A stretch of 64,000 bases of DNA from Amoebophrya sp. A120 (lineage: Eukaryota; Protista; Dinoflagellata). Below are positions 4,291-64,000 of this stretch, piece after piece (position 1 is the stretch's first letter; each line of letters begins with the position of its first letter). Made by a program: the position numbers and the translations under genes. Where the stretch lies: contig CAJINV010000002.1 in NCBI GenBank assembly GCA_905178155.1, positions 10,586,709 through 10,650,708 of the forward strand. Reading direction: 5' to 3'. The notes beneath the pieces were generated by a model, which searched no databases, had not been told where the DNA came from, and was given only the letters and a program-made list of their open reading frames with translations.

Positions 4291-7200
4291 CTATTCGGAG
4301 GAGAGCAAAGTCGGCGGAACCGCGATAAACTCCCGGGTGTGCGCTCGCGTTTGCATCCGAAGATTTTGGATCTCCACGCCCCGATCAAGAACTTCTTCTC
4401 CCTGGCTCTTACTGCTGCAATCCCGATACCGCTCGTCGCCCCCGCGCTGCTGATAATGCTTGCTCTCCCAGATGCGGACTTCACGATCACGTTCCTTCGC
4501 AAATGGCGCGCATGAGATGTCATTCCAAAGCGCACCAGAGTCCTCAAGGACGAAGTTCTGTTCCCCTGGTGCTCGCGCAAGGTTGACAAGACCGGTACTA
4601 GTGTCTCTCTCCGCATTCTTGAAGTCGGAAGAGCGCCAGTTTTCATCGCTGTCCTTTACTCTTGAGGAACTAGTACCCGTTTTCTTCTGCTGGTGTATCT
4701 GTCCGTGTCCCGCCAGAACGACTTTCTCCTTACTTGCTTGCAGGGGTCGGAGGTAAAACTTTTCCTGCAGCTCCAGAATCTCGGCGGACGGCGGTTGCTC
4801 AACAACCTTGCAAATTGATTCTTTCCGCCCGAAGCCTCCGTCGTGCAAGTTCTCCATCACATCTTGATGCTGAAAAAGATCTTCTCTGGTTGAATTCTTT
4901 ATTTGTCGCTGCCTTTCTTCGTACGTTTCAATTTGATTACTGCGCGGCTGCTGCTGCTGCTGCTGCAAGTCTGTCAGACCTCCTACGGTGTCTGAAAAAA
5001 CACCACTTCCGCCCAACTCGTCGACGATACCGATCTGCTTTGACATAGTCCCGCTGGTTGGCTGGAACCTCTTTAGCAGACCGGTTACCTCCCCTGTGAC
5101 ACCATGCCCGCTGTTTAACGAAGCTCCCACTTTGCTCGCGTTTTGCTGATGTTGCTGTAGTTGAGTCCGGCAGTACTGGTGTAGTCCATCTTCTTGTATC
5201 TCGTCCGGTAATTCAAAGGTGTTGGTCTGCACCAGCTGCTTCGCTCGTGTTTGACGGGGACTGCGGGAAGAGGACGAGGACAGGTAGTTTTCATTTGCTA
5301 CTTTGTGAAGCCGGGCACTTTGTCTCGTCCCACAGCTGCTTTGTGGTCTGTGTGGCATGGTAGGATGTGGCCCTCGTTCCCCCTGCTGTCTCGTCCACGA
5401 AGAGGAGGAGGGCGGTGCCGCACGGACTCCCATCGGACCAACATTTCGACGGTCCCCGCTCCCGTGAAAAGGCTCCTGACCCTGGTAATACTGCTGCACT
5501 TCCTGGTGGTAGTCGCGATAGACGGGAGAGCGGCTTGCGCCTCCTCCTCCGTGAAAACCCCCGTGGGCGGCCGCCCCGTCCAAGCGCAACACTTCTGCTC
5601 CGCGCGGGCTTGCAGGGGTGGGCCGCTGCAAGCCTCGAATATTCTGCTCCTGGTGTTCGTCAGAGAATTGGTTGCTGCAGGTCGATCCCACCAGAGCCAT
5701 GGCGTCGCGCACGTCAAGCTTCCGCACCAGCACGTCTAAAATGTTTTTTGCATGCGGGTGGCGCAGACGCCACAACTTTTCCATTCTCGGGACAAGCGAC
5801 TCCGTGTAGTCCAGCAGCTCGGGGAGGTGCTGTTGATTGTGGCTCTGCTGCTGATCCAAAAGCTCCTCAGCAACGCTGTCCAGAGTCGGCAGCAGCCCGG
5901 TCAGCTGTGCGAGCTTCAGGGAGAGGCGGACGCAGTGGGCGAACCCGCAACGAAGTTCCTGAAGCAAGTCGGCGTGCTCGAATGTGTTTTGCTGCTCCGT
6001 GAGGGCGTTTATTCGCGCCTCGAGCTTGGCGCTGGCGTGCCCCTGCTTGCGCTCTAATTCCGACTGCACTTGTTGCACCAATTGCGGCAAATCCTGCAGA
6101 AGTTTGGATGAGAGTACCAAAATTCGGTTGAATGATGGAAATAAGCCGCCAAAACCTCAGCAAATACCTCAAGCGAGGCCCATTCATTCCGCAGTTCAAT
6201 TTTCCACAGCACATTCGCAACCAAAAGTGGAATTTTTCCTACCTGTGTCTTTAGGTTTTCAATGCTTTTGTCCAGCGCCGCTGCTTTTTCAGTGAGGTTC
6301 TTCTTTGCGTCCACGATGTCGTTGAATAGCCCGCTCACCCTCAGTTCCTGCCCTCCTACACGCCGAACCACGTCAGCTAGCTGGACCTCCGTGGCTTCAT
6401 TGACCGCGTTTAGTTCCTCCGTAAGGCGTTCCTGTTTTGAGTTCGTGGACTTCACAACTAGGAACTCAAGTTCCAAGACTAAAGTGGATAGAAAAACAGA
6501 CAGCGACTTGAAGCCCAGGAGGACCTGGACCTTGAACAGAAAAGGGTAGAAACCCTCCTCAAGAGAAACGAGCGAAGTACCTGCTGCCCGGCGGCGTTTT
6601 GTTCGATGCCCTGCTCGATAGATTGAATCGCGGCCACGGTCTATGCAAGAAAAAAACTGTGTAAGTGTAAGTCTGTGATGCAGAAAATGCAAGACAGTTA
6701 CGCTTGTCATGCTCCACATGCATGATAGGCTCGTTTCCTACGTGTTTTCCCGTCCTATCTGCGCATGACAAGATTTTCCTGTCACGGCAGACGAAATTGT
6801 GATGCTGTTTTCCCAAAAGACCTACACTAACACAGTTTTTTTCTTGGATACGGTCTGCTGCTTAAAAGTGCCCACTTCGTCGAGACACTCAGACACCATG
6901 GTTTCTAGGCGAAGTAGCTTGCCCTCCACTACCGACGCGAACTGGTTCTGCACGTTGTTTGTTCCAGAGTTGGCACTCGGGTTGTTTCTTGTTTCGTTCA
7001 TGCTAGTGCTGAACTCCTGCGCCAGAAGATGTTGCTTTTCCTGCAAAGATCTCACATCAGCCTCGAGACGCGACAGCGCCGTGGTTGCGTGGTGACTCAC
7101 GGCTGCTGCTGCTGCTGCTTCCGCGGCTTTGCTTTCTATTTGGATGTCAAACTTGCTTTGCAAGTCCACAAGCGCTTTCGGATCTGTCAGCATTGCCTTA

Positions 7201-7881
7201 GCGGCCGCGAGGAACTCCTGTTTACGCTCATCCCAGATGGCAGCAGACGAGGGACCACCTGCATGTGTATTGGTGAGTATGATTCTGAACAAGGGAAATT
7301 AAGGCTTAAGGGCGAGGCATGCGCATGGGCGCACGATAGCATGAAAAAAGCATGAAACGAAACACCACCCTCTCGCAAAGCGGTAGAAGCTACTTTCATC
7401 TTTCTTAATTGTACGGACTGCTCTCACTCACGGTCAGTATCGTCACGACCCTGCTTAAAAACGCACCATTTCCGTCCGCTTGCCTCCCTCCCGAGGAGGA
7501 TGACGACCCGCCACTGGCGTTCGACAGAGTCGCCACTTGTGCCTTCACTCGATTCAAGTCCGCATTTACCGCGTCCAGAGCCAGCGTGATATCCTCGAGG
7601 TGATTTTCCCCGCTCATCAGCATGCGGCGCATCTCGGATTCCCACCGCTTTTCGCTGGTCCCGCATTCCACCAAAATCTGCTGCGACCGTGCGGCAGCTG
7701 TGGCAGTCGCGATACAGGTACCGTCCACGTTCTCCAGCTTTGTTGGCACCTGTGGTGCGCCATCGGGCGGGGTCGCAGATGTCGCTCCTTCTGCCTTGTT
7801 CTCATTCTCGTTCGCCTCCAAACTGTCCAACCTGGTGCAGACATGCTGCAAAAGGTCCAAGATTTTACGGTTGAAGTCCAT
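4291..7881 (-). CDS. Multi-exon coiled-coil, Q-rich protein of unknown function
   Basis: ORFs 7405-7881, 6822-7292, 6054-6719 (part) and 4291-6120 have coiled-coil character and can be joined through introns, including element E1 and a 125-nt non-canonical intron at 6118-6242. Some junctions are uncertain. Confidence 0.65.
6118..6242 (-). other. Putative non-canonical intron (GT...TG) with GGTA direct repeat and short inverted repeat
   Basis: Sense 5' CAG|GTAGGAAAAATTC ... GAATTTTG|GTACTC; removing 125 nt joins KTQ to VLSSKLLQDL in frame. Confidence 0.55.
6642..6850. mobile_element. Introner/MITE E1 (209 bp, ~33-bp TIR, TSD CGGTC)
   Basis: tatgcaagaaaaaaactgtgtaagtgtaagtct ... agacctacactaacacagtttttttcttggata, flanked by cggtc at 6637-6641 and 6851-6855. 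Removal gives KQQT-VAAIQSIEQGIEQ. Reverse-complement copy of E4. Confidence 0.95.
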
Positions 7882-25266: not shown

Positions 25267-26607
25267 CTATGTTGGAACTCTTTTACCTGATCGCGAATAC
25301 TGGTCTAAAAATTTGCGCACTTTCTGAAGAGCTCCGTCAACTTGAAGGTCGACATAGAACTCCATATCGTGCACAATGCGGTCTCTGACTCCCTCCATCT
25401 TTGCTGCATGCGCATCTTCCGGAAAATACAGCCAGTAGGCACGCCGGCACTGCGTCCCATCTGGAAGCCTCGGGCCAAGGATCCGCAGCAAATGCTCCGT
25501 GGGAAACATGTAGAAGCCCCGAAGCTCGTCATTTTCGTGGAAGTAGTTCAGGGCAAAGATGAAATCGACTGTCTGCATCTCGGCGACGGAGTAGGGGCGG
25601 GTGGCTGGCGATTTTGAAGGATGCGTTGTCGTGACGCGCAGGGCGCGACCGTATTGCGGCAAACGCGCTGATGGTACTCGGTGGAGAGCGCGCGCAGAAT
25701 CAACATAACTGTTGAAAAACCGCAGCGACGCGTCATCTGGGAACGTCAGACTGATTCCGAGTGGCCCGTAAACTTTCTCCTGCATGTTTGCAATAGCGCC
25801 ACAGAAAACGGCCTGACGTGCGGAGGCCAGCATCCCGCTGCAGAAAAATCGGAACCAATCTGATTTTGTACGCAGTTGCATTTGGACTCGCTCGTGGTGA
25901 AGTGCAGTTATGATCTCCGGAATCGTGACACGTTCAGATTCGCCAATAAGACGAAAACGCTCTTCTCCTTGCGTGTGAGCTGAACTGGGCACCGTGAAGA
26001 ATATGTTTGAGTGCGGAGCAACGAGAACGTAAGGGAACGGACGCTTCCTGATGTCGTGGTACAAGAACTTTCGTTCTGAGGAAGTATAAGCCTTTAGTGT
26101 ATCTGGGCCAGATTTTACTTTCGACGTCGTTTTCACAACGACAGGGAACCACGCACTTGGTCGCAATTGCCCTTCTTCGACATATTGCACCAAAGCAGAC
26201 GCCGGCCAATGGTGCGGCAACGGAAAAAAAGTCCATCGCGGGTCGACGTTGCGTACGGCCTTTGTCAAAAAATGTAGCCCGGTCTCCGCTACCATTATGG
26301 ATTCACAGGCTCGTTCGCTTGCTCGAAGACTAACGTCAGAGTCGGTGTCTCCTGAGGACGAAATTTTGATTTGCTGGTTTAGGAGACCTGGTGCTCCGCT
26401 GTCCGCGACATCCAAAATTGTTGCCGACCTTTCAGTTGCTGCCAACGCTTTCATGCTGTGCTCTCCTCTCAAATGAGACAATGCGTGAAGTCTACGTGGA
26501 GCATTACTTCGTTGCGGGACGCCCGCCCAACATGGACGCGTGCGCAGCAACGAAAGATCCCCCCGCGATTGCACAGGCGCTATGCTGCCAAGGCGTGACG
26601 CTATCAT
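25267..26607 (-). CDS. Array paralog P2
   Basis: Same motifs (DPRWTFFPLP..WPA, WFPVVVKTT, RPYS, YWLYFPEDAH, DMEFYVDL); R-rich presequence. Confidence 0.88.
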   Translation of the reverse strand: MIASRLGSIAPVQSRGDLSLLRTRPCWAGVPQRSNAPRRLHALSHLRGEHSMKALAATERSATILDVADSGAPGLLNQQIKISSSGDTDSDVSLRASERACESIMVAETGLHFLTKAVRNVDPRWTFFPLPHHWPASALVQYVEEGQLRPSAWFPVVVKTTSKVKSGPDTLKAYTSSERKFLYHDIRKRPFPYVLVAPHSNIFFTVPSSAHTQGEERFRLIGESERVTIPEIITALHHERVQMQLRTKSDWFRFFCSGMLASARQAVFCGAIANMQEKVYGPLGISLTFPDDASLRFFNSYVDSARALHRVPSARLPQYGRALRVTTTHPSKSPATRPYSVAEMQTVDFIFALNYFHENDELRGFYMFPTEHLLRILGPRLPDGTQCRRAYWLYFPEDAHAAKMEGVRDRIVHDMEFYVDLQVDGALQKVRKFLDQYSRSGKRVPT

Positions 26608-27029
26608 CTTAGTTTGTTGATGTTCGCTGGAATCTTTATGTGCTCGAGACGAGCAGGAAAGATTCCCTCAATCAAAAGGAACCGCGGACATCCGCTTTCG
26701 AAACTGGGTGCTGCTGCTGCTCCTGCTCCTTGACCTACAGAAAACCGACTTTATCGTAGTGCGTCTACAGGATGAATTAGAATTACTTACCTGATCCCAA
26801 CCAGATTAAAATCATTGGAAAAGTGTTTAGCTCATTGATCTAGATCTTTTGGTCGTGGTTAAAAAGCATACTTATAAAATGCTCCCGCTGCTGGTGCTGC
26901 GATACTGCGAGACAATACCTCCCACAGGTTTTAACGGACAGGCGAGACGTAACTTCAGATTTCGTGTCAGATCCGGCCTAGACAAACGGGCCTCGCTGCA
27001 ATATTCTCGTTCTGTCCTCGATCATTTCG

Positions 27030-27101
27030 TCACTTCTTTCCTTTCCCTCTGCCCCTTTTCGTTTTCTTTACTGTTGGTCAATCCTCATTGCTCCACGAAC
27101 T
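27030..27101 (-). pseudogene. Degraded copy of the 3' end of the gene ending at 34593
   Basis: Translates SSWSNED*PTVKKTKRGRGKGKK*, against the original SSSSDDDGPGGKK...KGKGKGKK*. Confidence 0.65.
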
Positions 27102-27178
27102 CCTGTCGCTGAGCGAACGATTATTTTCTTTTGCATCTGCTGTCACTTCTGTGCGAAAGCCAATACAACAGTGCTTCA

Positions 27179-28450
27179 TCATTCTTGTTGCGGGCGCCAG
27201 GAGCTGTCCAGGATCCTTTGAACTTTCGCAACAAGATCTCCGTCGTTCTCACTGTCTTTCAGGTCAATGTAAAATTCCATATCGCGGGCGACGCGATCCT
27301 TAACGTCGCGAGCTCTTGCACGGTGCGCCTCCTCGGGAAAGTATGCCCAGTAGGATCGCCTGCAGTGCGGCACATTGTGGTCCTTTTTTGTCAGCAATGG
27401 AAGTAAGTGGGCCCTGGGGAAAAGGAAGAATCCCCGAAGAGCCTGGGAACGCATGTCAAAATTGAGTGCGCAGACGAAGTCGAGGGATGCGACCTCCGCG
27501 AGTAAATAGGGGCGGTCGCTGTCCTTACCGCACGACGTTGTGAACTTCAAAACACTTCCAACGTGATGCGGATTACACGACGCAATGCGATGCAGAATTC
27601 TGTAATCGCCGACTGTTGTGTTATGCACCCGATTTAAAGATGACTCCGGAAAGGCCAACTCCAGACCAAGTTTTGCGTAAACCATGCTCTGCAACTGTAA
27701 AAGAGCATTGCAAAATGCGGCCTGGCGTGGAGACGCAAGCATTGTTTGCTGAAAAATGTGGAACCAGGCGGATTTGCTTCTCAATGCGCCGGTCTGCCAT
27801 TCATTCTGCATGCGATCCAACAAATCAAGAAGCGGCGTGCGTTGGGCATCGGCGAATTCCGTGAACCGCGGATGCTGCAAGGCGCCTGATGTTCTGGACG
27901 GGACCACGAAAAATGCGTTCGACTCAAGACCAACACAGATCTGGAAGAACGGCACGCAATTGATGCGGAATTTGAAAAACCGTGTCCCCTCGTCAGCGCC
28001 AAGCCGCTTTGCACGTGCTGCTGTCCGCACGAGAAGTGGCAACCAACAGTCGTCGCTACTCCCGTCGCAAAATTGAACCAAATAAGAGGCTGGCCAACCA
28101 CACGGAAGTGGGTAGAACTTCCAACGTGAATCAGTGTCCTCGATAGCTTGCCGCAACAGCTGCCTTCCCGAGAAAGCTATTGCAAGAGTCTGTCCTCCTC
28201 GCCGTTGAACATCGTGCTTCGGATCTACGCGCCCACATCCAGCTTCGTCAGACTGCGTGCCACGCCTACTTACAGCAATTTGTGCATCGGTCGACTGGTA
28301 CCTCCGCTCGCGGCCCGTGATTATACTTTGTCGTTCCGCCGCTGAAGTGGGATAGCAGCTCGGCCTGCTTGGCGCGAACAATGTATCCCGAAAAAATCGT
28401 CCCGGTTGTACCCGCAGTCTGCGGCTGAAGCCAGAGCATAATGGCCCCAT
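27179..28450 (-). CDS. Array paralog P3
   Basis: DSRWKFYPLP..WPA, WLPLLVRT, HRIAS, RPY, YWAYFPEEAHRA, DMEFYIDL; presequence MGPLCSGFSRRLRVQ. Confidence 0.88.
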   Translation of the reverse strand: MGPLCSGFSRRLRVQPGRFFRDTLFAPSRPSCYPTSAAERQSIITGRERRYQSTDAQIAVSRRGTQSDEAGCGRVDPKHDVQRRGGQTLAIAFSGRQLLRQAIEDTDSRWKFYPLPCGWPASYLVQFCDGSSDDCWLPLLVRTAARAKRLGADEGTRFFKFRINCVPFFQICVGLESNAFFVVPSRTSGALQHPRFTEFADAQRTPLLDLLDRMQNEWQTGALRSKSAWFHIFQQTMLASPRQAAFCNALLQLQSMVYAKLGLELAFPESSLNRVHNTTVGDYRILHRIASCNPHHVGSVLKFTTSCGKDSDRPYLLAEVASLDFVCALNFDMRSQALRGFFLFPRAHLLPLLTKKDHNVPHCRRSYWAYFPEEAHRARARDVKDRVARDMEFYIDLKDSENDGDLVAKVQRILDSSWRPQQE

Positions 28451-28927
28451 AGCCACTTGTCAGTTTCCGTCCGTACGAGGCAGCAAATAGAAGACCAAGA
28501 GAAACATGGGTGACATTTCTATTTCACAGCGACAAATTTACATATATCATCTAGACACATCTTTATCTTTCATGATCTCCTCTCTTTCCTGGTTCCATTC
28601 GCTCCTTGACGCTCTGCGCACAGAAAGTTGACGCCCCAGCCTACCGAATCACTCCCTCTCAAGTGGGTCCTCGCCTCATTCGCGAATTCATATTGCGTGC
28701 CTGACACACTAAGAAACGCGGCCTTGATCTTCGACGTGTCCACTACCTTTTGAATCTGTGGGGATCGATGAACTGACGTCAGTTGTCCATGGGTCGCTTT
28801 TCATTTCAGCAGTTGCAAGATCGTTTGCAAAAAACCTAAACCTCAGGTGCGTATGGTGTGGTTCGTTTCGCAGAAAAATCATATCTTCTCTATATCCACC
28901 ACAGCGCAAAGGGTGCACGCAAATTTT

Positions 28928-29039
28928 TCACTTCTTTCCCTTCCCTTTTCCCTTTTTCTTCTTTCCTTTTTTCTTACCTTTCCTCCCGCCCGGTCCGTCG
29001 TCGTCGCTTGATAAAATACTGCTTCCTTCGTCCTTTTTC
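28928..29039 (-). pseudogene. Copy of the 3' end of the gene ending at 34593
   Basis: Translates KKDEGSSILSSDDDGPGGRKGKKKGKKKKGKGKGKK*. Confidence 0.9.
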
Positions 29040-29048
29040 TATCGTGTA

Positions 29049-30446
29049 CTAGGTGCCTTCCAAAATTCGACGAAGTTTCTGCAACTGATTGCCATCTCTT
29101 TCTTCCAAGTCGATGTAAAACTCGAGATCGCTGGGTATCCGCTTCTTCACTTCGTCAGACCGCGCACGATGGGAATCCTCCGGAAAATATACCCAGTAGG
29201 TAGGTTTACAGTGGTCATTCTTACTCGGAGATGGTGCAAAACGCGTCACCAAATAAGAGCGCGGAAAGAAGAAAAATCCTCGCACTTCATTCGCCTCCCT
29301 GCAATAGTTGACTCCACATACAAAGTCGAGTGCTTGCAACTCAGCGAGCGAATAAGGGCGAACGCCCGAGTCAGTCGTGGTCGTTCCGGTCGTAAGAGTC
29401 AGGGCTCGTCCAGCATAATGTGAAACAGGTGAAGCAACCCTGTGAAGAACTTTTCGGCCATTTACAACAGTGTTGTGTGCGGTTTGAGCGCGCCGATACG
29501 TGACTTCTGCGCCGAGTGGTCCGTACACTTTGTCTTGCATCTGGATCATTGCACGGCAAAAGGTAGCTGTTTTTCCAGAAAGGGTGCCCATCCTTTCGAG
29601 AAAGCTGCGATACCATTCTCCTTTTCCTCGGACGCTGCCGCCTTGCCACTCGTTTTGTAGACGCCGTACGAGTTCGCGTGCACCCACTTGCTCCGACTCG
29701 TTAAACCAGTAGGTTTTGGTATTATCAGTCGTAGCCTTTCTGCGCCGTACTCCACGTGCAGGGGAATCGACAAAAAACATACCTGGAAGCGGCCCGACGA
29801 AGATCTGCAGATGTGGCAGCTCATTCACCCGATTGTAGACGAAAACTCGCTTGTCCGATGGCATTTCCATGGACCTTGGGTCGACCTTCGCAAGCTTTTT
29901 TTTGTTTCGATCGTAGGTTTGAAAAGTTGTTTTCAACGATAGTGGGAACCACGAATCGCACTCAGAATGCAGTTCAGCTTCCTGATATTGAACCAAAAAA
30001 GTTGCCGGCCACTGATACGGCAGTGGATAGAAATGCCAAGCCGAATCGAGCCCTTTCACAGCAGAGAGAAATATCCGCGCTCCTGCTTCGGCTATCTCAA
30101 CCGGCGACTCGCGTCGGGCAGAACTGCCTTCTTCGAGAGTTCCACTTAGTCGAGTCTCAGCAGGTGAAGTGACCAGAATGCTGCGCGGTTCTTCTTCTTT
30201 GTCATCCTGAAGCGCCGTAGAAGCGTGTAAACAACGACGATCTAAAAAGCGGCACAGCGGTAGACGCTCTCGTATCGATTTCATCTCATGTTGTCGCTGC
30301 GATTGTCCGTCGCGGGTCCTGACATATGGTAAATTGGGTTCGGATGGGATAGTAGTAAGCCATCGCGACCTAGAAGCACGTGTCGGTAAAGCGCGACTTC
30401 CTGGCACCGACGCAGCGGTGGTTACACGCATTCCTTGCAGGGCCAT
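29049..30446 (-). CDS. Array paralog P4
   Basis: DSAWHFYPLPYQWPA, WFPLSLKTT, HNTVVNGRKVLHRVAS, YWVYFPEDSHRA, DLEFYIDL; presequence from ATG 30446 (MALQGMRVTTAAS...RSRWL). Confidence 0.88.
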   Translation of the reverse strand: MALQGMRVTTAASVPGSRALPTRASRSRWLTTIPSEPNLPYVRTRDGQSQRQHEMKSIRERLPLCRFLDRRCLHASTALQDDKEEEPRSILVTSPAETRLSGTLEEGSSARRESPVEIAEAGARIFLSAVKGLDSAWHFYPLPYQWPATFLVQYQEAELHSECDSWFPLSLKTTFQTYDRNKKKLAKVDPRSMEMPSDKRVFVYNRVNELPHLQIFVGPLPGMFFVDSPARGVRRRKATTDNTKTYWFNESEQVGARELVRRLQNEWQGGSVRGKGEWYRSFLERMGTLSGKTATFCRAMIQMQDKVYGPLGAEVTYRRAQTAHNTVVNGRKVLHRVASPVSHYAGRALTLTTGTTTTDSGVRPYSLAELQALDFVCGVNYCREANEVRGFFFFPRSYLVTRFAPSPSKNDHCKPTYWVYFPEDSHRARSDEVKKRIPSDLEFYIDLEERDGNQLQKLRRILEGT

Positions 30447-30485
30447 TTTGTGTTTGGTCCTTGATAGAAAAAAAGTATGTGTGTC

Positions 30486-30506
30486 CTTGGCCAAAATGCA
30501 GCTACG
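30486..30506 (-). other. Relic dinoflagellate spliced leader upstream of P4
   Basis: Sense CGTAGCTGCATTTTGGCCAAG against DinoSL CGTAGC--CATTTTGGCTCAAG, about 40 nt before ATG 30446. Confidence 0.7.
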
Positions 30507-30997
30507 AAAAAGATCGGGTCTGTGCAGTTCAGCTAGATCAACGAATTGACTTCGCCTAAAGTGACACGCATCCATCAGCATACCCTCGACCTCGGAATTT
30601 CCCGTCTCTCATCTTATCACGGGAAAACGAAAAATAAAGCACACGCGGGTGCCCCCATGTACCTATATTGTAAAGCAAAAGTTGTGATCAGGTCTTTGCT
30701 GCGTCGAGAAAGTTGCGACGCACTTAATTGCCTCGCTTCGCGTTGACTGCTACTGTTCGTCAAATGCAACTCTTCCATATGCTACAGTGGATACGGATAA
30801 GAACATTTCATTGTCAACTGAAGTAGGAAAAGTGCCGTACTAGGACCTCGATGTACTACCCACGAATCATCGTAGCGAGAGCTCGCTTCTTCCATGGGTT
30901 AGTTTCTCTTTCGCAAACAAACCATTCAGCCGAGATAGATTCACTTTCGCAGTCAATGTCGAACCACTATTGGTCTACAAAAAAACGAAGAAATATT

Positions 30998-31102
30998 CTA
31001 TTTCTTCCCTTTCCCTTAACCCTTTTTCGTTTTTCCTTTTTTCTTCCATTTTTTCCCGCCCGGTCCGTCATCGTCGCTCGATGAACTACTAGACTCCTCG
31101 TC
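30998..31102 (-). pseudogene. Copy of the 3' end of the gene ending at 34593, with a premature stop
   Basis: Translates DEESSSSSSDDDGPGGKKWKKKGKTKKG*GKGKK*. Confidence 0.9.
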
Positions 31103-31125
31103 TCTCAATCATCAAAAAAGACGAC

Positions 31126-32487
31126 TCACTGTGAAGTAACTGTAGCTGAAGTAGACTGGTAGTCGCTTATGATTTGTCGCAGCTTCACTAGAGGATCCGA
31201 GCCAGGCTCCCGAAGGTTCACATAAAACTTCAGGTCTTCACTTAAACGCTTTTTGACGTGTTCGAGCTTTGCGCGGTGGCCGTCTTCTGGAAAATACAAC
31301 CACATAGTGCACTTGCATTTATCAGCTTTACCTTCACCCCCAGAAAATAATGCTGCTGCATACCATTTTGGAAAAAAATAAAAGCCATCGAGCTGATGAG
31401 ACGTTACGCAGTAGTTCAACGCGCACAAGAAATCGAGGCTGTTCATTTCTGTGGAGGAGTAGGGCCTTTTCGCTTGCGACTCCGATGTAGCGGTTACAGA
31501 CAATGGTCGAGCTCCACGGTCCCGCACAGTTTGCGCGTTCGCGATGCGATGCAGCACTTTGAAATTTCCAACAGTTGCATTGTGAGAACCCGCACTTCGT
31601 AACGAAGAATTCGGAAACGAGACATCAAGTCCCAAAGGACCGTAGACGTGGAGTTGCATTTGGATTAAAGCACGACAATAAGCAGCTCGCGTGCCACGCA
31701 CAAGACACTCGTCATGGAAAAAAGCAAACCAGTCACAACGACTTCGTAGGTTCCTCTCCGCCTCCTGGTACTTCGCAAGCATCTCGCCCAAAATGTCGTC
31801 TAGTCCCACCTGATCCGCATCCGAAAATGACAAGAAGTGCTGCGCTCCAGTATTTTGCTGTTTCTCCGAATCCGAAGAATGTCGGCCGGCCGGAATCATG
31901 AAAAATTTACTTGATTCGAGCGCGACGAACACCTGCAGAAAGGGATGGCTTCTGCCATTTCCCTGTGGCAACCGAAAGAAAAAACGCTCTTTCTCGACAA
32001 TTTTCCGGGTGTCCGGTGGTGACGTCTGGCCACATTTCAACCGTCGACCATTTGAAGTCAAACTCCCGGCTGTAGTTGTCCGAAGGACGATAGGTAACCA
32101 GTTGTCCACAAGCCCGTCTGCGTGTCTCGCGCGATGCTGCACTAGAAATGTAGCAGGCCATTGCCACGGGAGCGGGTAGAAATGCCAACAAGGATCGACA
32201 TCCGCGATGGCCGCGCAGAAAAGCTCCTTCCCAAGTTCGGCTATAGCAAGGGGCGAGTACCGTGGTGCACAATGCAATTTCTCCTTGGATGCAGCATGCC
32301 GGACGAGCATTCCCTGTTGTAAACGATCAGCTTCGGCAGTAGATGCATCTCCTTCCGGGAGAGACGATTGGGCTTGGTAACGCAATTGCGTGGCGACCGT
32401 TCGACGAAGATCTAGTCGGTGTCGAACACGCAACAGTCCCGACGCGCGGCACCGTTGCGATATGTCCCAGACACGGTGCGGAATCAT
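31126..32487 (-). CDS. Array paralog P5
   Basis: DPCWHFYPLPWQWPA, WLPIVLRTT, HRIAN, RPYS, WLYFPEDGHRA, DLKFYVNL; R-rich presequence. Confidence 0.88.
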   Translation of the reverse strand: MIPHRVWDISQRCRASGLLRVRHRLDLRRTVATQLRYQAQSSLPEGDASTAEADRLQQGMLVRHAASKEKLHCAPRYSPLAIAELGKELFCAAIADVDPCWHFYPLPWQWPATFLVQHRARHADGLVDNWLPIVLRTTTAGSLTSNGRRLKCGQTSPPDTRKIVEKERFFFRLPQGNGRSHPFLQVFVALESSKFFMIPAGRHSSDSEKQQNTGAQHFLSFSDADQVGLDDILGEMLAKYQEAERNLRSRCDWFAFFHDECLVRGTRAAYCRALIQMQLHVYGPLGLDVSFPNSSLRSAGSHNATVGNFKVLHRIANAQTVRDRGARPLSVTATSESQAKRPYSSTEMNSLDFLCALNYCVTSHQLDGFYFFPKWYAAALFSGGEGKADKCKCTMWLYFPEDGHRAKLEHVKKRLSEDLKFYVNLREPGSDPLVKLRQIISDYQSTSATVTSQ

Positions 32488-32761
32488 GTTCTTCGAACTT
32501 CTCGTATGCGGAACATCAGAATCAGAACACTGACAAGGGACTATGCAGCGCGATCACGGACCGACTGCTCCAACAGATCATCAATCCGTTTTAGCGCCTC
32601 TCAGCAGCACTCGACATTCTCCCTCCTTCGCTAGGGATTCATTCTGGTGTAGTCTGAGTCTGAGGAACAAAACTACGAATACCAGGTTTGCGCTGCACGG
32701 CTCGCACCATAACGGCAGGCTAGCACTCCAGTGCGTCGCACAACCCCAATTTTTACCATCT

Positions 32762-34108
32762 CTAGCCTCCGTTGTACGTCTTGCCCATCAAAATATTTCG
32801 AAACTTTTCCAAGTACTCGGACGGTGAAGTTTCACGTAGGTCGATATAGAATTCCATGTCCCTAATAATGCGCTCCTTCACCCCTTCACGTTTCGCACCG
32901 TGCGCATCCTCAGGAAAGTATATCCAATATGCACTCCGACATCTTCTTCCGTCCTTCGCTATTGGAGCAAACATCTTGAGAAGGTAGTCCCTTGGAAAGA
33001 CGTAAAACCCGAGCAGTTCGTCAGCATCTGCAGAATAGTTTAGCGCGCACAGAAAGTCAAGCCTTTCCATCTCCTCCCTTGTGTATGGCCGTGTTGCTCG
33101 TAGTCTGCTATTCGTAGAAGTCGCTCTTACGACATTCAGAGCGCGTCCCAAGAAACCACTGCGATACGCAGGAACTCTGTGCAGTACCCTAGCGCAATCG
33201 ACGTAGCTGTTGAAAGGACTATTTGACGCAGGATCCGGAAAACTGAGATTCATACCCGCCGGACCGTAAACTGTCTTCTGCATGCTAGCCAGTGCGCCGC
33301 AGAACATCGCTTGGCAGGTGGAAGAAATCATTCCCTTGGAAAAATGACGAAACCAGTGAGCCTTGGATGCTGTTCCGCTTCCGGTACCGGTCGCACGTGT
33401 CCATTCTGCTCGCAGACCCACAAGAATCTCATCAAGCGAAACCTGCTCCGACTCCCGGAAGAAGCGACAGGAGACAGCAGATTGCGCCATGAAGAACAGA
33501 CCGGATTCCGGAGCGACTAGCACATTAAGAAACGGCCCATATCCGATCTTGTGGAACAGGAAAGTCCTTTCTTTACTTTCTGCCGTCTTAACTTTCGCTG
33601 TCGTCACTGATGATGCCGGCTTCTGTATTTTGAAGGTCGATTTCACCACCAGTGGAAACCATGTGTCGGAAACTACGCCCTTTTCGCAGTATTGCACTAA
33701 AACAGACGCTGGCCAGTGGTGGGGAAGTGTGAAAAAACGCCAAGCGGTATCCACTGCACGTATTGCGTCCTGCAAGAATTGTGCTCCACTTTCCGATACA
33801 ACGATCGAGCCCCGTTCCCGCTTTCTTGAGACTGAGCTTTGCACTAAATTTTGTGCGACCAAATCTCCCGGGGCGCTGCATGCAGCTTCATCGATATAGC
33901 TGGCAACACTATTTACCGGCAGCTGTGCAGTTACGGCCGCGGTAATGAAGCGCCGTTGTGGTCGTTGAACACGGGCGAGTGCAAGTCGACGATGTTGTGC
34001 CGCACAAATTATGATCCCCCCGCTCTTCAAACGTAACTCCTGCAAGGATTGCACGTTCACTGCTGGAATAAGGTTTGCCTTTGCGCTCCCGATGCCAATC
34101 GCAAACAT
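32762..34108 (-). CDS. Array paralog P6
   Basis: DTAWRFFTLPHHWPA, WFPLVVKST, HRVPA, RPYT, YWIYFPEDAH, DMEFYIDL; most similar to P2 by eye. Confidence 0.88.
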   Translation of the reverse strand: MFAIGIGSAKANLIPAVNVQSLQELRLKSGGIIICAAQHRRLALARVQRPQRRFITAAVTAQLPVNSVASYIDEAACSAPGDLVAQNLVQSSVSRKRERGSIVVSESGAQFLQDAIRAVDTAWRFFTLPHHWPASVLVQYCEKGVVSDTWFPLVVKSTFKIQKPASSVTTAKVKTAESKERTFLFHKIGYGPFLNVLVAPESGLFFMAQSAVSCRFFRESEQVSLDEILVGLRAEWTRATGTGSGTASKAHWFRHFSKGMISSTCQAMFCGALASMQKTVYGPAGMNLSFPDPASNSPFNSYVDCARVLHRVPAYRSGFLGRALNVVRATSTNSRLRATRPYTREEMERLDFLCALNYSADADELLGFYVFPRDYLLKMFAPIAKDGRRCRSAYWIYFPEDAHGAKREGVKERIIRDMEFYIDLRETSPSEYLEKFRNILMGKTYNGG

Positions 34109-46282: not shown

Positions 46283-49200
46283 TCATTTGATCCCATGAAA
46301 GATCTTTGCGCGTCGCTTCGCAGCACGGCCGTATTTCCTTCCACCCATACCGAAGGCGCTGCGGTCTTGCTTTTTCAGTCGCTTGCCGTGGTTGATCTTC
46401 CATATCTTTCTGCCGGACAAGGGCGCCAATGTTTCTGGGTCCGCAGTGCTGTCTTTTCGCATAGAAATCTTGGCCATCTGCTCTGTCGTGACCACGGGCT
46501 TGCCGCCCTTGCGCTTGCGGTAAGCGGTGGTGGTGTTCTTGGCCTGCTGCTGCGCGATTAGCTCGTCGTTGTACATCAGTCTCCGTCGCTTCTTGTCGTT
46601 CGCACCTGAAATGCTGTCGCCGCCTCGACCAGGGCCGCCCTCCGTGCTCTTCGCTTCCCTTACTGCCTTCGCGACGGGGTCCTCCTGTGCGCCGGCGAGA
46701 GATTTCGGAACCAGGTACTCCGGAAGATATCTGTTTGTATTTATCACAATTCAACAATTTTCTCTTTCTGAAAACGTAGCCTAATGATGCAGTCAAATAG
46801 TTTGCAAGGACGAACAACAGATGAAGTACTTCTACTTAAACACGCGTACTACTTGAAAGGACGAAATATGAACTGTACCTCAGGTGCGAATTCTTGTGTT
46901 TATGCTTGAGGTCTCGCTGGGACATGCGCAATGCCCGGAGGTCCTGGGGGTTCTCCTCAAAGTACTTCTTTAACCGCTGGCTGTTGACTGCCTCTGCCTG
47001 CAGTTCGCGCAACCGCATGGCGGTAACCGCCTTCTTGGTGACCTGCTTCTCCACATCGCGGACTCGGTAGCGGAGCTGCTCAATCGAGCATACGTCGAAC
47101 GGAAGCCTCTGAACTTGGTTGCCGTTTTCCCCGCTTGCACCGCGCCCTGGAAGATGATGAAAACGTTGTTTTTACCATGGCACAACAATCATCACGGACA
47201 GGGTAAAATTTTCACATCGCTACTATCGCATCATGAAATACTTCAGTATTGATCATATTCAAACAAGTCCTCCCATCTATGTACCAAAGAGCTTCTCCGC
47301 GTTTTCCGAAATGGCCTGCATCATGCGCAGTTGGCTCTCGCTGTGCACGTCGATTAAAGTCAACGCTGTGCCGTCGTTTTTGCCTCGCGCCGTGCGGCCG
47401 ACACGGTGCACGTAGGAGCGCAGGGTTCTCGGTGCGTCGGCGTTGATCACGGTGCCTACGTCTTTGAAATCCAGACCCCTTGTTGCGGAAAACTGGGCCT
47501 GCAGCCCGGACTTCGCGGCGACCAGTTTATCCTTACGGGTGACCCGCTGCTCTTCGTCGGAGAGAAAATCCTCGTCCTCCGAGTCCTCCTCTTCGTCTTC
47601 ATCGTCGTCGTCCACTGTAAAGTGCGAAGATTTTGATATAGCATATAACGATCGCTTGTATACACACAATTCTCGCACAAATCTCAATCTCAGGATCAGG
47701 AAGGCTCATTGAGGTCACAAATAGAACGAGCATCGTATAAAAATCGAGCAGCAATCAGTACTGTCTTCTCCCAAAAGCTCAGCGTCGTCTGCTTCGCCGG
47801 CCTCCTCTTCGTCGACGTCGGAAAAATCGGACCCAAAATCAGAGTCTTCTTCATCGTCAGCCTTTTTCTTTTTGTCGTCTTTGCTTGTCTTTTTCGCGGC
47901 GGCTTTGGAGCTTGTCGTCTCTGATGGGGTCTTTTTCTTTTTCGCCTGCTCTTCCTCTGAAATGTCCTCCTCAGAATCATTTTCTTCTGATTCGCCGTCA
48001 TCTGGATCTGCTCCCGAAGTTGCAGCGTCGTTGTCGCTTCCGTCCTCTTCCATGTCGAGATCTTCTTCCTCGAGCTCGTCGTCGCCCTCTTCTTCCTCGC
48101 TGTCAAAATCGTCCCCATCGTCGCTGTCCTCCTCCTCCTTTTCCCGTTTTCGCTTCAGCGCCGCCTGGTGCTTTTCCCTTTGCTGCTCCTTTCGCGCGTT
48201 TTCCTCCTTCAACTTAGCAATTTTTGCCGACGGGACGTGGTTTCTACCGATTTCCGGGTCGCCCAGCTGAATGCTCAGCGTTGAGTTCTGTCGCTCCTTC
48301 TTCTTCGGATTCAGTGTCGCCCCCGCTTCCGATTCCGAAGAACTTGCATACCGGTACTCCATGTCGAGCGATTCCTCGGAAGTTTCCTCGTCGCTGTGGT
48401 CTTCTGCCTTGCTTTCGTTATCGTCAACGTTCTTGGAACGCGCATTCTTTTGTGAGGACTTTTTCTTTTTCTTGCCGAAATCCAACACGTCAAAGCCGTC
48501 GTCCGTCGCAATGCAGACGTTGGTCAGCCCCTGGTTGAAGCTCTGGATCACGTTCTGCCGGCTCTCGAAGCTCAGCTCGTGGTTCAACACCGAGCTGGCG
48601 ATGGCAAACTTGTCGAGGAAGAGCTTGAGTTGGTACGCGTTCTGCAGGTTTTTCACGAAGATCAAAATCTTGCCGCTGACGATCTTCAGCCGCAAGAAGG
48701 AGTACAGGGTCAGAAGCTTGTCTTGCTTCAGGTCCAGCGGGAGGTAGAACTGCGTCAACTTCCGGTTGAACACCGGGTCGTCCTCGTCTAGCGGGTTGTC
48801 GATTCGGACCGGGTTGTGCAGAAGCAAACTGGTCAGGGACTCGACCTGAATTTGTTAAGATAATTTCTTCAAACAGGATCTAAATTCCGAAAAACCCTAA
48901 CCACACAGAATCAAGCAAAAAACGATGAAGATAAAGTCGCAGTAGTAATACCTCTTCGGATAGCGTTGCGGAGCAGAGAAAGGTTTGGAAGTGGGCTGTT
49001 GGCAAGTAGGTTTTCAGTTTCTTGTATCATATGCAAAAACGTCCCCACCCCATAGTCAAGATGGGGAATCGGCTAGACAAGTCCACGAGTTTTGGCTGCT
49101 TTGCATGACAAATTTGGAATCGCAGTGTAGTGCTGTTTGAGGTAGTTCAGCAGCACCACAGATCTAGTATGTCATGCTCATTGGCGCATTACAAATTCCA

Positions 49201-50229
49201 AAACACGACCAGTAAATGCTTCGCATGGAGCTCCACATGACAAACATTTTGAGCATGCAGATTTGCATGACAACTCTGGGGTGGAGACGTTTTTACACAG
49301 GATATCTTGATCGCTTCTTCGTACCCGTAAACGCACATCAAGTCCGCCTCGTCAATCACCAAGGACTTCAGAGACCGCAGCACGCTCTGAATGTCGCCCG
49401 TGCGCAACTGCAGCAGCTGCAACAGTCCGGTGGGCGAGGTGACAAGTACGGTCGGTAACTCGGCGCGTTGGAACGGCTCCCCACTGATGTACGCCGCGAC
49501 GGAGACCTTGTCGTAGCAAAATTCGAGTAGTTTCTCGGCTTCTTCCGCAATCTGCTGGCACAGCTCCTTACTGGGGACCAGGACGACGCCACGGAGGGTT
49601 TTGGCGTCGGACGAATTCGTTTGCTTCGAACTACTCGAGGAACTTGTGGAGGGGCCTCCCACCGTTTCATCGAGAATGCGTTGCAACATCGGGACAAGAA
49701 ACGCCATCGTCTTGCCACTTCCCGTCCGTGCGTTACACAATACGTCCCGCCCCTGCACCGCCGCCGGGATGCTGGCGCACTGCACGGCCGAGGGCCGCTC
49801 GAACATGGCGCTCAGAGGCTGCACCAGTCGCCGGTCGAGATTCAGATCGTCCCAGGATTTTTGTTCTGCCTCCTCCTCAGATGCTGTGGCGCTCTCACCA
49901 CTTTCTCCCTCAGACGACTCCTCCTCGTCAGAGGAGGCTTCTTGTTCCTCGTCGCTCTTACTGACAACAGTGGTAGCTGCGTCGGCATCAACATTCTGGT
50001 CGTCCTCCTTGTCCTCGTTTGCGCTGTCCTCATCCGCAGAGTCATCGTTTTCGGGCTCCGACTTCTCATCTTCTGATTTTTCTTCCACAGGTACTGCTGG
50101 CTGCTGCTTCGATGTTGTGGTGCCTGCTTTGTTTCCCTTGACTGCGGGAGTCGTTGCATCTTCCACCTTATTCGCCTGCTTGCTGGCGGCAGCAGGTCCT
50201 TTCTTCATTACTTTCTTTTTCACTCCCAT
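46283..50229 (-). CDS. DBP9: DEAD-box RNA helicase DBP9/DDX56 (60S biogenesis)
   Basis: Q motif, ARTGSGKT, PSKEL, DEAD, SAT (after E3 removal), RGLDF, YVHRVGRTAR, LRYRV, YFEENP.DL, HLRYLPEYLVP. Four GT-AG introns plus E3. Confidence 0.92.
49025..49304. mobile_element. Introner/MITE E3 (280 bp, TSD TCTTG)
   Basis: tatcatatgcaaaaacgtccccacccca ... tggggtggagacgtttttacacaggata, flanked by tcttg at 49020-49024 and 49305-49309. Removal gives DEADLMCVYGYEEAIK-KLKTYLPTAHFQTFLCSATL. Confidence 0.95.
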
Positions 50230-58807: not shown

Positions 58808-61800
58808 TCAGAAATGGAAGTCGTCCTCGTAGTCTTCCATACCGTGCTGTGCGCGCACTGGCGGACACATCCTTAAATGATCTACCGCTCGCTGCTGCAA
58901 GTCTTTAAAGGAATTTCCATCGCACAGCAGCTCTTTTCTTTTCTCGCCAACCTGCTCCACGTCTTGACTGCCACCCTCTATCCTCAAATCTCGAAAAAGC
59001 TCCGCAAAAGACGTGAAGCCCTCGCTCTGCAGCTCCAAACTCTTCTGGTAGACCCGCTCGTAGTCCTGTTCATTGAAAGCATCGAATTCCAGGTTTTTCA
59101 TGCGTTTGTCGCGGTGCAGGTTGCGGCCCGCCAGATACGGCAGTGCGAGACAGAAACCGGGATTCTGGTACTCGTTTGCGTTGAACTTTTTCAGTATGTC
59201 GATGGCGTGGTTTGGGCAGGAAATGGTGCGGTCGAACAGAGTGCACTTTTTCAACGGATACAGGTACTCCTCCAACGGCAGAAACCCCTCCCACGCCTGA
59301 AACACCGGCATTTTCCCCAGATAGCACAGCGGGTTGACGGGGGGAGACACGCGTGCCGTCGAACCTTTCGAACTCCCAGCACCAGCACTCGAAGTTGCAA
59401 TTTCGCTGCTAGTAGCTTGATATTCTGCAAGAGATGAAAGTCGAATTCTCTTCCGGCGGCTTTTTTGGAACACAAACCGGCTCGACTTCAGCTTCTCGAC
59501 GACTCTCGTGATCCCGCCCGTTCCGCGGCGCAGCGCCCAGGGGTTGAACCCAAAGATCTTCACCCCTCGCCCGTGTCGCGCCTCAATTTCCGCTTGAACT
59601 ACCTTCTGCCTCGCTTCCACCTCGACGTCCTCCTGCATCTTTGCGTACTTGGTTTTCACCTCCTCCTTCTCTCCGTCCGTCCGCTCCGGCACTTCCTTGC
59701 CCTCCTCCAACGCGGTACCGTGCAACACCTCGTGGTGAGCCGCGGCGAGTTCCGACCGCGACGCGGAAAGTCGCCGCTGCTTCGCGTCCTTGTGCATCCA
59801 GTTCTGGTACTCCTTTTTCGCCGCATACTGGTCCGCGTCGCACCACGGCGCGTAACCGCTGCCGCCCATCTTGAACAGGTACGCAAAGTTGAGCCGCCGC
59901 TCGATGACGTAGGACCGGAGCTCCACGCCGATCGCGTAGGGCTTGTACCAGCCGCAGGCGAGCAGATCCTGCCGCACGTAGTTGCTCCAAAAGTTGTTAT
60001 TCGTGTGGAGCGAAAAGGTCTGGTGGCACATCCCCGCCCCCTTCTGCGCAGTCAGCACCTGGCTCAGTTCCGCGGACACGTCCAGCCAGGCGTCCTCGCT
60101 GTGCAGGCCGATCATGAACTCCAGGTCGTCGTCGATCACGTCCCACCGTTCGTTATTTGCTGCTTCCGCAGTATCACGACTGTTCACCCCTCCCGCCGCG
60201 TCCGTCAGGCGGCCGGCGATCTTCCCCCAGCGTAACGCGCCGATCATGGTGCCGCCGGCTGGCCAGAACTCCAACCCGAGCCGCTCGAGCTCGTCCACGA
60301 TGATGTGGAAAACTTTTTCCATCTGTTGGTCGTACTCCTCGGGCACGATGTCCGTTTTGCATATCCAAGAAAAAAACTGTGTTAGTGTAAGTCTTTCGGG
60401 AAAACAGCATCACAAGTTTGTCTGCCATGACAGGACAAACTTGTTATGCGCAGATACAAAGGGAAAACACATGGGAAGCGCGCTGATCATGCATGTCGAG
60501 CATGACAAGTGTAACTGTTTTGCATTTTCTGCATCACAGATTTACACTTACGCAGTTTTTTTCTTGCATATTGCACGCGTCTTCCGCACTGCAGACGTCC
60601 GCGCGCTCCTCTACGCGGTTGATCTTCTGTCCGTACAGGATTTCCTTCTTCGACATCATGCGGTTCTCGGCAACACGGATCAGCCCGATCCAGTCGATAT
60701 TCCGCCCGCCCGCGATCCAGGTGTGCCAGTTGGGGATGGCGTACTTGTTGCGCGCGGGGAGGTAGACCCGATTGATCAAGTGGTGGGAATACTTCAAGAA
60801 GTGGCTCCACGCCGCGAGCGGCTCGTTGCGCAGCATGGCCTGGATCGCCTCTTCAAATAGCTTATTGATGTAAACGAGAAGCGCCAGCATCACGGCGGGC
60901 GTGCACGCGTTAAAAGTGAAGTTCGGGTCAGTCATCAGCAGGTAATGCGTCATGCGATTGATGTCCGGCTTCTTCGCGGCACCAGCAGAACTTGCGGATT
61001 CTCCGTCGCGATCTGAATCAGCGACGTCCTTTTGCCCATTTGTTCCATCTTCTCCCCCGCCGAGCACCCGGCTCTCCACGCTCGCCGCATCTGTATTCAT
61101 CGCGTCCGCCTTGTTATTTTCCTTTGGCAGCTCTCCAGTGGCCTCGCGCTCGATGCGCTCGTACTCGCTTTGCGACTTCAGGCGCATGGCGCGGGCGACG
61201 GTAGCGTCCATCTCATCCACGTCGGCGACTTTTCCGAGAAGTTCCGCCACTCCGTCGCGGAAGAGCCGGTAGAAGTTGACGCTTTGTTCCTTCTCGTAAT
61301 CGAACATCGTGCTCGTGCGATCCATGCACTCGTCGCCAGCAATCGCCTTATTCTGGATCGTCAGCTGCATGTTGTCCAGCGGCAACACGTGGTACACCCA
61401 CTGCGGGTGGTGCACCGTGAAAATTCGCATCAAATTCTGCCGGATCTCAATGAACCTTGTGGAGTTTCATGTTTTGGAGAAGATGGACTTGTTGCGGCGG
61501 AAGGAAGTAGCCCACAAAGTGCCATGGTCTTCTCCCCAGTGCAATAGCAATTCTTAAGAGCAGCATACAAAGTTCTTTTTCTATGATTTTGTTCATAGCC
61601 CCCTTTCTAAGTGCAAAAGTAGAAGCAGAAACAATGACCCGTTATGTACCTACCATAGGCCTGAAGCATCAGCGGCGGAAGGATGTTCTTCACTTCGAGG
61701 TAGGGCGACTCCGAGAGCACCAGAAACATCCGACGCATCCCCGCCATGCTGCTTGGGTGCAGTGTGTACGCAAGCTGGCGCGGAAGGCGAAGCAGATCGG

Positions 61801-62446: not shown

Positions 62447-62899
62447 TTTTCGGGGAAAACCTCCACAAACCATCGTGCTTCCAACAGAAGCAGCAATTGA
62501 CGACGAACGTTAGCGTGACATCTTGACACACGTAGCCAAGACTGACCCTGGTGCTGTTCGGCGAAGAGCGTCAGTCGTGGAGAAGATCCTCTTTCGGAAA
62601 GACGCGACTTTGCACAGAAAAAAAGCATCAAACAACACCGATTGTCCTTGAACACTAATCTAGAACGCTTTGTTCTCTACTGCACGAACGACCTGGAGGT
62701 CCTTCCTAGAATCAGTGCGAGTCTGACTTCATCCTTCCTTCACCGCACAGACGGTGACTGGGTGCCTGTGTAGCGAGCACTATTTCTTCAGAAACGTCGA
62801 CGATCGTACACAACATCTACGGACTATTTCAACCACCACGCACACATAAAACGCGCGATCCTGTCGAAATCTACGGAAAGTGGAAGAACTAATCAGATC

Positions 62900-64000
62900 C
62901 TACGCTCCAGAAAGCGTTGGCACGCCTAGTATTTGCACCATCACAGCCTTGTCCTCCTCGATCTGTTTTTCCTTCGCCAAGGCTTCCTGCCTCGCCAACT
63001 GGTCCCGGGCGGACTCCTGTTTGGCCGGCGAATTGTTTCGCGTCGTGTAGTATCAAATGTAAAAATGTCTGGGTCTGGAAGATTGCGAGATTTGTCATGC
63101 ATATTTCGGATCACCCAAATGGCGTCTGATGCAGGCAAAAGCATCACAGGTTTTGAGCACGCCTCATGAAGCATGTCCCGCATGAGAAACTTCCTACTTG
63201 CGTGCCAAGAAATGGACAGCTTTTGGCGCTCATGCAACACAAATTTTTGTGTGTTCCAGAGTTTGCATCACAAGTTCCAACCCTTCCAGACCCAGACATT
63301 TTTACATTTGATATGTAGGTCGACGAGGCTGCGTTCTCTGCCGTGAAGGACAATTTTCTCGTATTACAGTGAAAAATGCCCCCCACCCCTTAAATTGTAA
63401 AAATTTGTGATGCGAAGTGTCCAAATGAAGACTTTTTGTCATGCATGAAAGGAGTATGCATCTTTCTGATGCAGGGTCTAGGCGTGTATCGCATCGCTTG
63501 CATGACAAGCGCCGCTCTTGCTGGGGTCTTTTGCAATACAATACATTCTTGCTGTTCACGATTGGAAACCTGTGATGCTGATAGATGCAAGAGGGTGAAT
63601 GTTTCATTTGGAAAGGTTTGCAATACAAATTCTCCCAAGTTCGGGGGTGGGGGCATTTTTCATTGTAATATCTCGCCCGGTTCCGTGCGCTGTTTTGCTT
63701 CGACGAAGAGGCGCTGGAGGCAAATCCTGGCTTGCCGCCGCGCTCAATCTCCACTGAAGCGTCCCGGACCTTGCTCGCTAGCTCCTTCAGCAATTTCTCG
63801 GTGGCCTCGTCGTCGAGTTGGCCGCGTTTGCTGGGGCTCTTCACCGAGCGGAGTTCCAGCGCTACACGCTCGACGAAGCTACGCCCCTGGCCCGCGATGC
63901 CGCCGACTTCGTTTTTCGGCGAGCGGGCGCTGCGCTTGGAGGTGCTCGCGATCGCTCCGAGAAGTTTTTGCACGTCAGATGTCGAGCCGGTCCGGGCGCG
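62900..64000 (-). CDS. 3' part of a hypothetical gene interrupted by E5 and E6
   Basis: After removing both elements the frame reads ...RNRAR-KLSFTAENAASSTY-TTRNNSPAKQESARDQLARQEALAKEKQIEEDK...SGA*. Confidence 0.75.
63051..63313. mobile_element. Introner/MITE E5 (263 bp, perfect 31-bp TIR, TSD TGTAG)
   Basis: tatcaaatgtaaaaatgtctgggtctggaag ... cttccagacccagacatttttacatttgata, flanked by tgtag at 63046-63050 and 63314-63318. Confidence 0.95.
63362..63670. mobile_element. Introner/MITE E6 (309 bp, TSD TCTCG)
   Basis: tattacagtgaaaaatgccccccacccc ... gggggtgggggcatttttcattgtaata, flanked by tctcg at 63357-63361 and 63671-63675. Confidence 0.95.

What the first reader, a model, noticed from the sequence alone, without database searches (positions are those of the whole stretch)
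6637..63675. Six TAT...ATA, 5-bp-TSD elements from five sequence families act as precisely removed introns
Seen: E1-E6 (209, 473, 280, 209, 263 and 309 bp) all begin TAT and end ATA, have 25-35 bp TIRs and exact 5-bp TSDs, and lie inside coding sequence. Removing the element plus one TSD restores the frame in all six cases, including between the DEAD and SAT motifs of the conserved DBP9 helicase. No precise-removal register reads GT-AG. Established: IR/DR-flanked introners are known in Amoebophrya. The shared terminus and TSD rule across unrelated interiors implies a single mobilising transposase. I do not recognise TAT termini with 5-bp TSDs as a named DNA-transposon superfamily (Transib uses CAC, Ginger/Tdd uses TGT).
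Basis: partly seen in the sequence, partly recalled or inferred. Interest (0 to 1): 0.8.

Follow-up and report, generated by a model that had tools for sequence, protein, structure and literature searches.

The report
Known Amoebophrya transposon-derived introns
These six short jumping-DNA inserts in genes of the marine parasite Amoebophrya are members of an already published class of unusual introns: three are seen cut out cleanly in transcript-derived sequence, likely guided by the hairpin their own ends form rather than by normal splice signals.

Summary
Six TAT...ATA elements with terminal inverted repeats and exact 5-bp target duplications lie at the stated places (0 in 50 shuffles). Spliced-type contigs skip E1, E2 and E3 by exactly element plus 5 nt; no junction was seen for E4-E6. 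The host helicase matches a protein named Amoebophrya sp. A120. The class is published: Farhat 2021 gives A120 introner ends as TAT+7 nt+AAA with 5-bp direct repeats, and a Gozashti 2025 supplement notes '5-bp TSD, TA/TA termini' for family 38. TA..TA ends also define IS3EU/GingerRoot, which have 6-bp duplications, so membership there fails. Added here: a sister genome (Prp18 93% identical) carries the same families; 212 of 260 short TIR pairs have an exact 5-bp duplication, none 4 or 6; targets look random, with a GT-AG register in 4 of 69 (3.7 expected); and an internal motif, TGTSATGC, is shared by 13 of 14 interior clusters, so interiors are not wholly unrelated. No transposase was found. 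Splice chemistry and mobiliser remain open. Verdict: already known, with modest refinements.

The parts
6637..6855 (.). E1: element 6642-6850 (209 bp) with CGGTC duplications; intron of a minus-strand gene without Pfam match; same family as E4
   Evidence: X1 contig skips 214 nt; RNA fold z -7.2
16413..16895 (.). E2: element 16418-16890 (473 bp) with CCGGC duplications; sits at the start of the second of two ~500-aa repeats of one minus-strand gene
   Evidence: X1 and X3 contigs skip 478 nt; empty paralogous site in the first repeat
49020..49309 (.). E3: element 49025-49304 (280 bp) with TCTTG duplications, between the DEAD and SAT motifs of a DEAD-box helicase
   Evidence: X1 record 1 lacks 391 nt = 285 + a 106-nt GT-AG intron; no indel against four homologues; fold z -5.8
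60357..60575 (.). E4: element 60362-60570 (209 bp) with TTGCA duplications, opposite orientation to E1 relative to transcription
   Evidence: open frame after removal; no junction seen
63046..63318 (.). E5: element 63051-63313 (263 bp) with TGTAG duplications
   Evidence: no junction seen
63357..63675 (.). E6: element 63362-63670 (309 bp) with TCTCG duplications, 48 bp from E5
   Evidence: no junction seen
46286..50229 (-).
   Evidence: Pfam DEAD and Helicase_C; P0001 named Amoebophrya sp. A120 maps here

Best explanation
The six inserts are non-autonomous TIR transposons (MITEs) of the published Amoebophrya A120 introner class, three of which are shown to be removed exactly with one 5-bp duplication, likely because their paired ends form a hairpin that a modified splicing machinery uses to place the cuts. 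Shown: structure, 5-bp rule, exact removal of E1-E3, no visible target preference. Inferred: an integrase-related DDE transposase acting in trans cuts with a 5-nt stagger and binds the TAT-N7-AAAAA end and the repeated TGTSATGC sites; after transcription in either orientation the TIRs pair, bring the two duplications together, and the cuts fall at a fixed offset from the stem base, so the original exon sequence is restored whatever its letters. The machinery is most likely the U1-less spliceosome that Farhat 2021 describes.
For: Exact skips of 214, 478 and 285 nt in contigs that also skip GT-AG introns and match exons without differences. Strong folding of all six (z -5.6 to -11.1) against -2.1 to +1.4 for four GT-AG introns (a fifth control had wrong coordinates and is dropped); the ends pair in the two structures inspected. 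Sister genome: 212 of 260 short TIR pairs, picked without a duplication filter, have an exact 5-bp duplication, 0 have 4 or 6; frame kept in 8 of 8, 8 of 8 and 10 of 10 unambiguous cases at three thresholds; GT-AG register in 4 of 69 versus 3.7 by chance; both orientations to the host strand. Motif: 505 hits in 56.9 kb of elements versus 4.3 in shuffles, 192 of 212 elements, clustered 30-50 nt from the ends, 13 of 14 interior clusters. Literature match.
Against: No junction seen for E4-E6 (one search showed 15 of 188 joints, crowded by the DNA-like run). X1-X4 are one sample and RNA only by guess; joints rest on one or two contigs. No transposase found, and Farhat 2021 found none in A120 and argued against transposase-driven spread. 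The true cut positions cannot be read from mRNA because the duplication makes registers equivalent. The motif could be an RNA splicing signal rather than a transposase site. In raw RNA runs X8 and X9, reads carry related TIRs joined to other flanks or interiors, so some copies occur unspliced in RNA.
Confidence: 0.62

Rival explanations
1. Same elements, but removal is spliceosome-independent: an endonuclease/ligase recognises the stem and releases a linear or circular intron, as proposed for euglenid nonconventional introns.
For: No target preference and no GT-AG excess; U1 not detected in A120; euglenid TIR introns are released as full-length circles without lariats (PMC11282704 passages).
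Against: A120 keeps 83 of 89 spliceosomal proteins and U2, U4, U5, U6, and GT-AG and TAT introns sit in the same transcripts. No direct test here.
Confidence: 0.25
2. A relaxed ordinary spliceosome reads sites supplied by the target: the last base of the duplication plus the element's T gives a GT or AT donor.
For: In the window the sense-strand last base is a purine in 6 of 6 (GT twice, AT four times). GT and AG are the commonest annotated ends in A120 families.
Against: Not repeated in the sister genome: purine 38 of 69 versus 33 of 69 at the mirror position, p 0.50; the matching acceptors spread over 15 dinucleotides. CT and TT donors are also common in the published tallies, which lean on annotation choices.
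Confidence: 0.08
3. The elements are not introns: transcripts come from alleles or cells in which the element is absent from the DNA.
For: An empty site gives the same joined sequence; X1-X4 and X5 are different samples; 173 joints were hidden.
Against: DNA-like X5 contigs at flat depth 43-45 run 27-29 nt into the element ends without breaking at the duplication (records 6, 8, 9), so no empty allele passed the assembler's filter at E3-E5. The published introns are RNA-seq supported genome-wide.
Confidence: 0.04

Closest known systems
Amoebophrya A120 introner elements (Farhat et al. 2021, PMC7789003; sections 10, 11, 12, 16, passages and supplement legends read)
   Same: IR starts TAT + 7 nt + AAA, 5-bp direct repeats in Fig. 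S19 legend, non-canonical splice sites, mean non-canonical intron length 240 nt; host protein named A120.
   Different: Nothing essential. The paper gives IRs of 8-20 nt and DRs of 3-5 nt and calls families strain-specific; here arms are 28-39 nt, the duplication is strictly 5 bp, and families are shared with a sister genome.
A120 introner family 38 and other A120 TIR families (Gozashti et al. 2025, PMC12130899; passages and all 58 A120 rows of file sd07.xlsx read)
   Same: [quoted passage not shown]
   Different: Family 38 has ORFs similar to Copia/Gypsy sequences; E1-E6 are non-coding. I could not see the family sequences, so E1-E6 are not assigned to numbered families.
IS3EU/GingerRoot DNA transposons (PMC10045372, PMC6839031, PMC12730594; passages read)
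   Same: TA..TA ends, TIRs, integrase-related DDE transposase, no target sequence preference.
   Different: Their duplication is 6 bp, rarely 7-8; here 5 bp in 6 of 6 and 212 of 260, never 6.
Euglenid nonconventional introns (review PMC11282704, passages read)
   Same: TIR stem brings non-canonical junctions together, TSD-like repeats, likely MITE origin.
   Different: Different lineage and end motif; circular release shown there, untested here.

Membership tests
Amoebophrya A120 introner elements | Inverted repeat beginning TAT + 7 nt + at least three A | tested here: met
   12 of 12 ends; definition
Amoebophrya A120 introner elements | Direct repeat of 3-5 nt at the boundaries | tested here: met
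   5 bp in 6 of 6; Fig. S19 legend
Amoebophrya A120 introner elements | Removed from transcripts at non-GT-AG sites | tested here: met
   E1, E2, E3; E4-E6 not seen
Amoebophrya A120 introner elements | Repeated in the genome | tested here: met
   E1/E4 89%; X5 summed depth 15,000-255,000 over element bins versus 43-74 elsewhere; relatives of E1, E3, E4, E5, E6 in the sister loci at 87-96% best identity
Amoebophrya A120 introner elements | Host is Amoebophrya A120 | tested here: met
   P0001, 100% identity, named so by its source
IS3EU/GingerRoot | TA..TA termini | tested here: met
IS3EU/GingerRoot | 6-bp target duplication | tested here: not met
   5 bp in 6 of 6 and 212 of 260; 0 with 6
IS3EU/GingerRoot | Transposase in the IS3EU/GingerRoot clade | not testable with these tools
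   no autonomous copy found; no whole genome held
Ginger1/Ginger2 | TG..CA termini | tested here: not met
   ends are TA..TA; Ginger ends; Gozashti main text says family 38 lacks Ginger termini and TSDs
Ginger1/Ginger2 | Integrase-related transposase | not testable with these tools
   elements are non-coding; only indirect hint from family 38
U2-type spliceosomal intron | GT-AG (or GC-AG) ends | tested here: not met
   0 of 6; 4 of 69 in sister loci, chance level
U2-type spliceosomal intron | Lariat intermediate with branch point | not testable with these tools
   no raw RNA reads cover these genes

The most novel reading that the evidence does not exclude
All TAT...ATA families are one unnamed lineage of integrase-related DNA transposons (TA..TA ends, 5-bp duplication, repeated TGTSATGC sites), and Amoebophrya splices them with a machinery that reads the element's own stem and measures five nucleotides, making every insertion in a gene harmless whatever the target sequence.
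Probability: 0.35. Interest if true: 0.8.

Novelty: already known. Interest (0 to 1): 0.3.

Why it matters
The class itself is in print, so the window adds little. The two open questions behind it matter: how an intron is placed without splice-site consensus in a cell that seems to lack U1, and which enzyme spread tens of thousands of these introns. A strict 5-bp rule, random targets and a shared internal motif make both questions sharper and give search handles for the missing transposase.

Tried and rejected
Whole-genome scan: no genome held. Raw RNA runs X8 and X9 covered 1 and 2 of 30 bins, only element-like pieces, so they say nothing on expression of these genes; no holder is on record as RNA. 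Purine-donor idea from 6 of 6 window sites: not repeated in 69 sister insertions. A loose six-frame test of frame restoration did not discriminate (151 of 170 for +5 versus 136-142 for controls); the sharper test did. Transposase search: long TIR pairs with duplications (631-1,148 bp; a 3.5-kb pair with nested MITEs) held no convincing ORF; Pfam on 105 of 209 sister-locus ORFs of 200 aa or more (left out: four non-JACKZZ loci, many overlapping antisense frames and the shortest) found no transposase or integrase, only a Copia-type RT beside two ordinary MITEs. Four viral and four other metagenome pattern hits have 0-1 motif copies and are treated as chance. Homologue search for E4's gene gave one 44% match that does not span the site. 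Earlier scan notes: none in three look-ups. Roy et al. 2023 is not held. The motif TGTSATGC did not appear in the passages I read or in searches; figures S19-S25 of Farhat 2021 were visible only as legends and may show it.

Full report
Observation. Fifty block shuffles of the window gave no such element against six observed. E1 and E4 are 89% identical and inverted to each other; the other pairs share only short pieces, so there are five families. All host ORFs are on the minus strand, and removal of element plus one duplication leaves an open frame across each junction. No equivalent register reads GT-AG (two extra E1 registers checked by eye).

Host. The ORF upstream of E3 matches at 100% a 1,040-aa protein that its source names Amoebophrya sp. 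A120; it maps to 46286-50229. That protein reads through the E3 site without an indel against four homologues, among them A25.

Removal. Four runs of one sample (X1-X4) are RNA by guess only, but their contigs skip GT-AG introns of 149, 149, 154, 106 and 143 nt and match exons without differences, so they behave as spliced cDNA. They skip 214 nt at E1 (one contig, 56 nt on the short side) and 478 nt at E2 (two runs). At E3, X1 record 1 holds 70 letters where the genome has 461; the 391 missing equal 285 plus the 106-nt intron. That is exact removal for 3 of 6. No joint was seen for E4-E6; one search showed 15 of 188 joints. DNA-like run X5 has flat depth and contigs that enter the element ends, which argues against empty alleles at E3-E5. 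Raw RNA runs X8 and X9 did not cover the host genes; their few reads carry related TIRs with other flanks.

A second genome. A degenerate end pattern returned 160 rows (157 loci; the scan hit its limit), all but four loci from one assembly, JACKZZ01. Its Prp18 is 93% identical to the A120 protein, so it is a close relative and not the same strain. It holds relatives of E1, E3, E4, E5 and E6 at 87-96% best identity. Among 260 short TIR pairs chosen without regard to flanks, 212 have an exact 5-bp duplication, 32 more differ at one base, and none has 4 or 6. Duplications show no base preference. In 69 insertions that could be oriented to a coding strand, a GT-AG register exists in 4, against 3.7 simulated, and the purine bias of the six window sites vanishes. 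Where frames were unambiguous on both sides, removal of element plus 5 nt kept the frame in 8 of 8, 8 of 8 and 10 of 10 cases at three thresholds; a looser test was uninformative. Families lie in both orientations to the host strand.

Shared anatomy. The interiors carry repeated TGTSATGC in both orientations: 18 of 20 window hits; 505 hits in 212 sister elements versus 4.3 in shuffles and 0.33 per kb outside; mostly 30-50 nt from an end; 13 of 14 interior clusters. The terminal consensus is partly circular, since ends were the search key; the motif is not. I read it as a transposase binding site by analogy with other DDE elements (recalled); an RNA role is not excluded. All six elements fold far better than shuffles, four GT-AG introns do not, and the ends pair in the two structures inspected.

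Mechanism. Shown: TIR elements with a 5-bp duplication, no visible target preference, exact loss from transcripts in three cases. Inferred: spread by an integrase-related transposase in trans; cuts placed by the element's stem at a fixed offset, since the target supplies no consistent signal; catalysis by a spliceosome that lacks U1. A spliceosome-independent route as in euglenids is the main rival. mRNA cannot show the true cut sites, because the duplication makes registers equivalent.

What is known. Farhat 2021 (sections 10-12 and 16, passages, supplement legends) states that A120 IR motifs start with TAT, then seven variable bases, then at least three A, counts 29,850 repeated introns in 1,954 families, and shows 5-bp direct repeats. 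It found no transposase in A120. Gozashti 2025 (passages; all 58 A120 rows of one supplementary table) files family 38 as Ginger with '5-bp TSD, TA/TA Termini', while its text says the family has Copia/Gypsy-like ORFs and lacks Ginger ends; only 2 of 58 rows carry a superfamily name. IS3EU/GingerRoot have TA..TA ends but 6-bp duplications, so the elements resemble that group and fail its test. I found no transposase.

Verdict. Real, mostly confirmed as introns, and already known as a class. The refinements (strict 5-bp rule, random targets, shared motif, sharing with a sister genome) did not appear in what I read, but figures and Roy et al. 2023 were out of reach. Interest 0.3.

Noticed in passing
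window 14714-18761 (-): E2 removal joins two ORFs into one gene made of two ~500-aa repeats 42% identical; E2 lies at the first codons of the second repeat and the first repeat is an empty paralogous site. No Pfam match.
   Followed up: partly
window 23586-34117 (-): Six tandem single-ORF paralogues of 426-519 aa, 32-48% identical, no Pfam match and no TAT element.
   Followed up: partly
window 1-64000: The long ORFs, including all with Pfam matches (kinase, ribosomal S9, CobW, MORN, DEAD helicase, cathepsin C, MTPAP-like), are on the minus strand, as in the one-way gene clusters reported for Amoebophrya; 16.9-49.0 kb has no TAT element.
   Followed up: no
runs X8 and X9 over window 63051-63084 and 49054-49110: About 100 raw RNA reads in each run carry an E5-like or E3-like piece joined to foreign sequence: related elements present in RNA at other loci or in another strain.
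   Followed up: no
L042:8746-9717: A 972-bp element with E5-type TIRs and a 5-bp duplication interrupts an ORF with RNA polymerase Rpb1 domains; other long non-coding members at L013:632-1465, L028:3862-4492, L052:7841-8988.
   Followed up: partly
L057:7953-11501: A 3.5-kb stretch bounded by perfect 25-nt TIRs (duplication differs at one base) holds several nested MITEs and no convincing ORF.
   Followed up: partly
L012:2090-4544: Copia-type reverse transcriptase region near two E2-type MITEs; not TIR-bounded.
   Followed up: partly
L033:5450-5477: A lone E2-type right end with no partner in 5.4 kb upstream; deletion or assembly artefact.
   Followed up: partly
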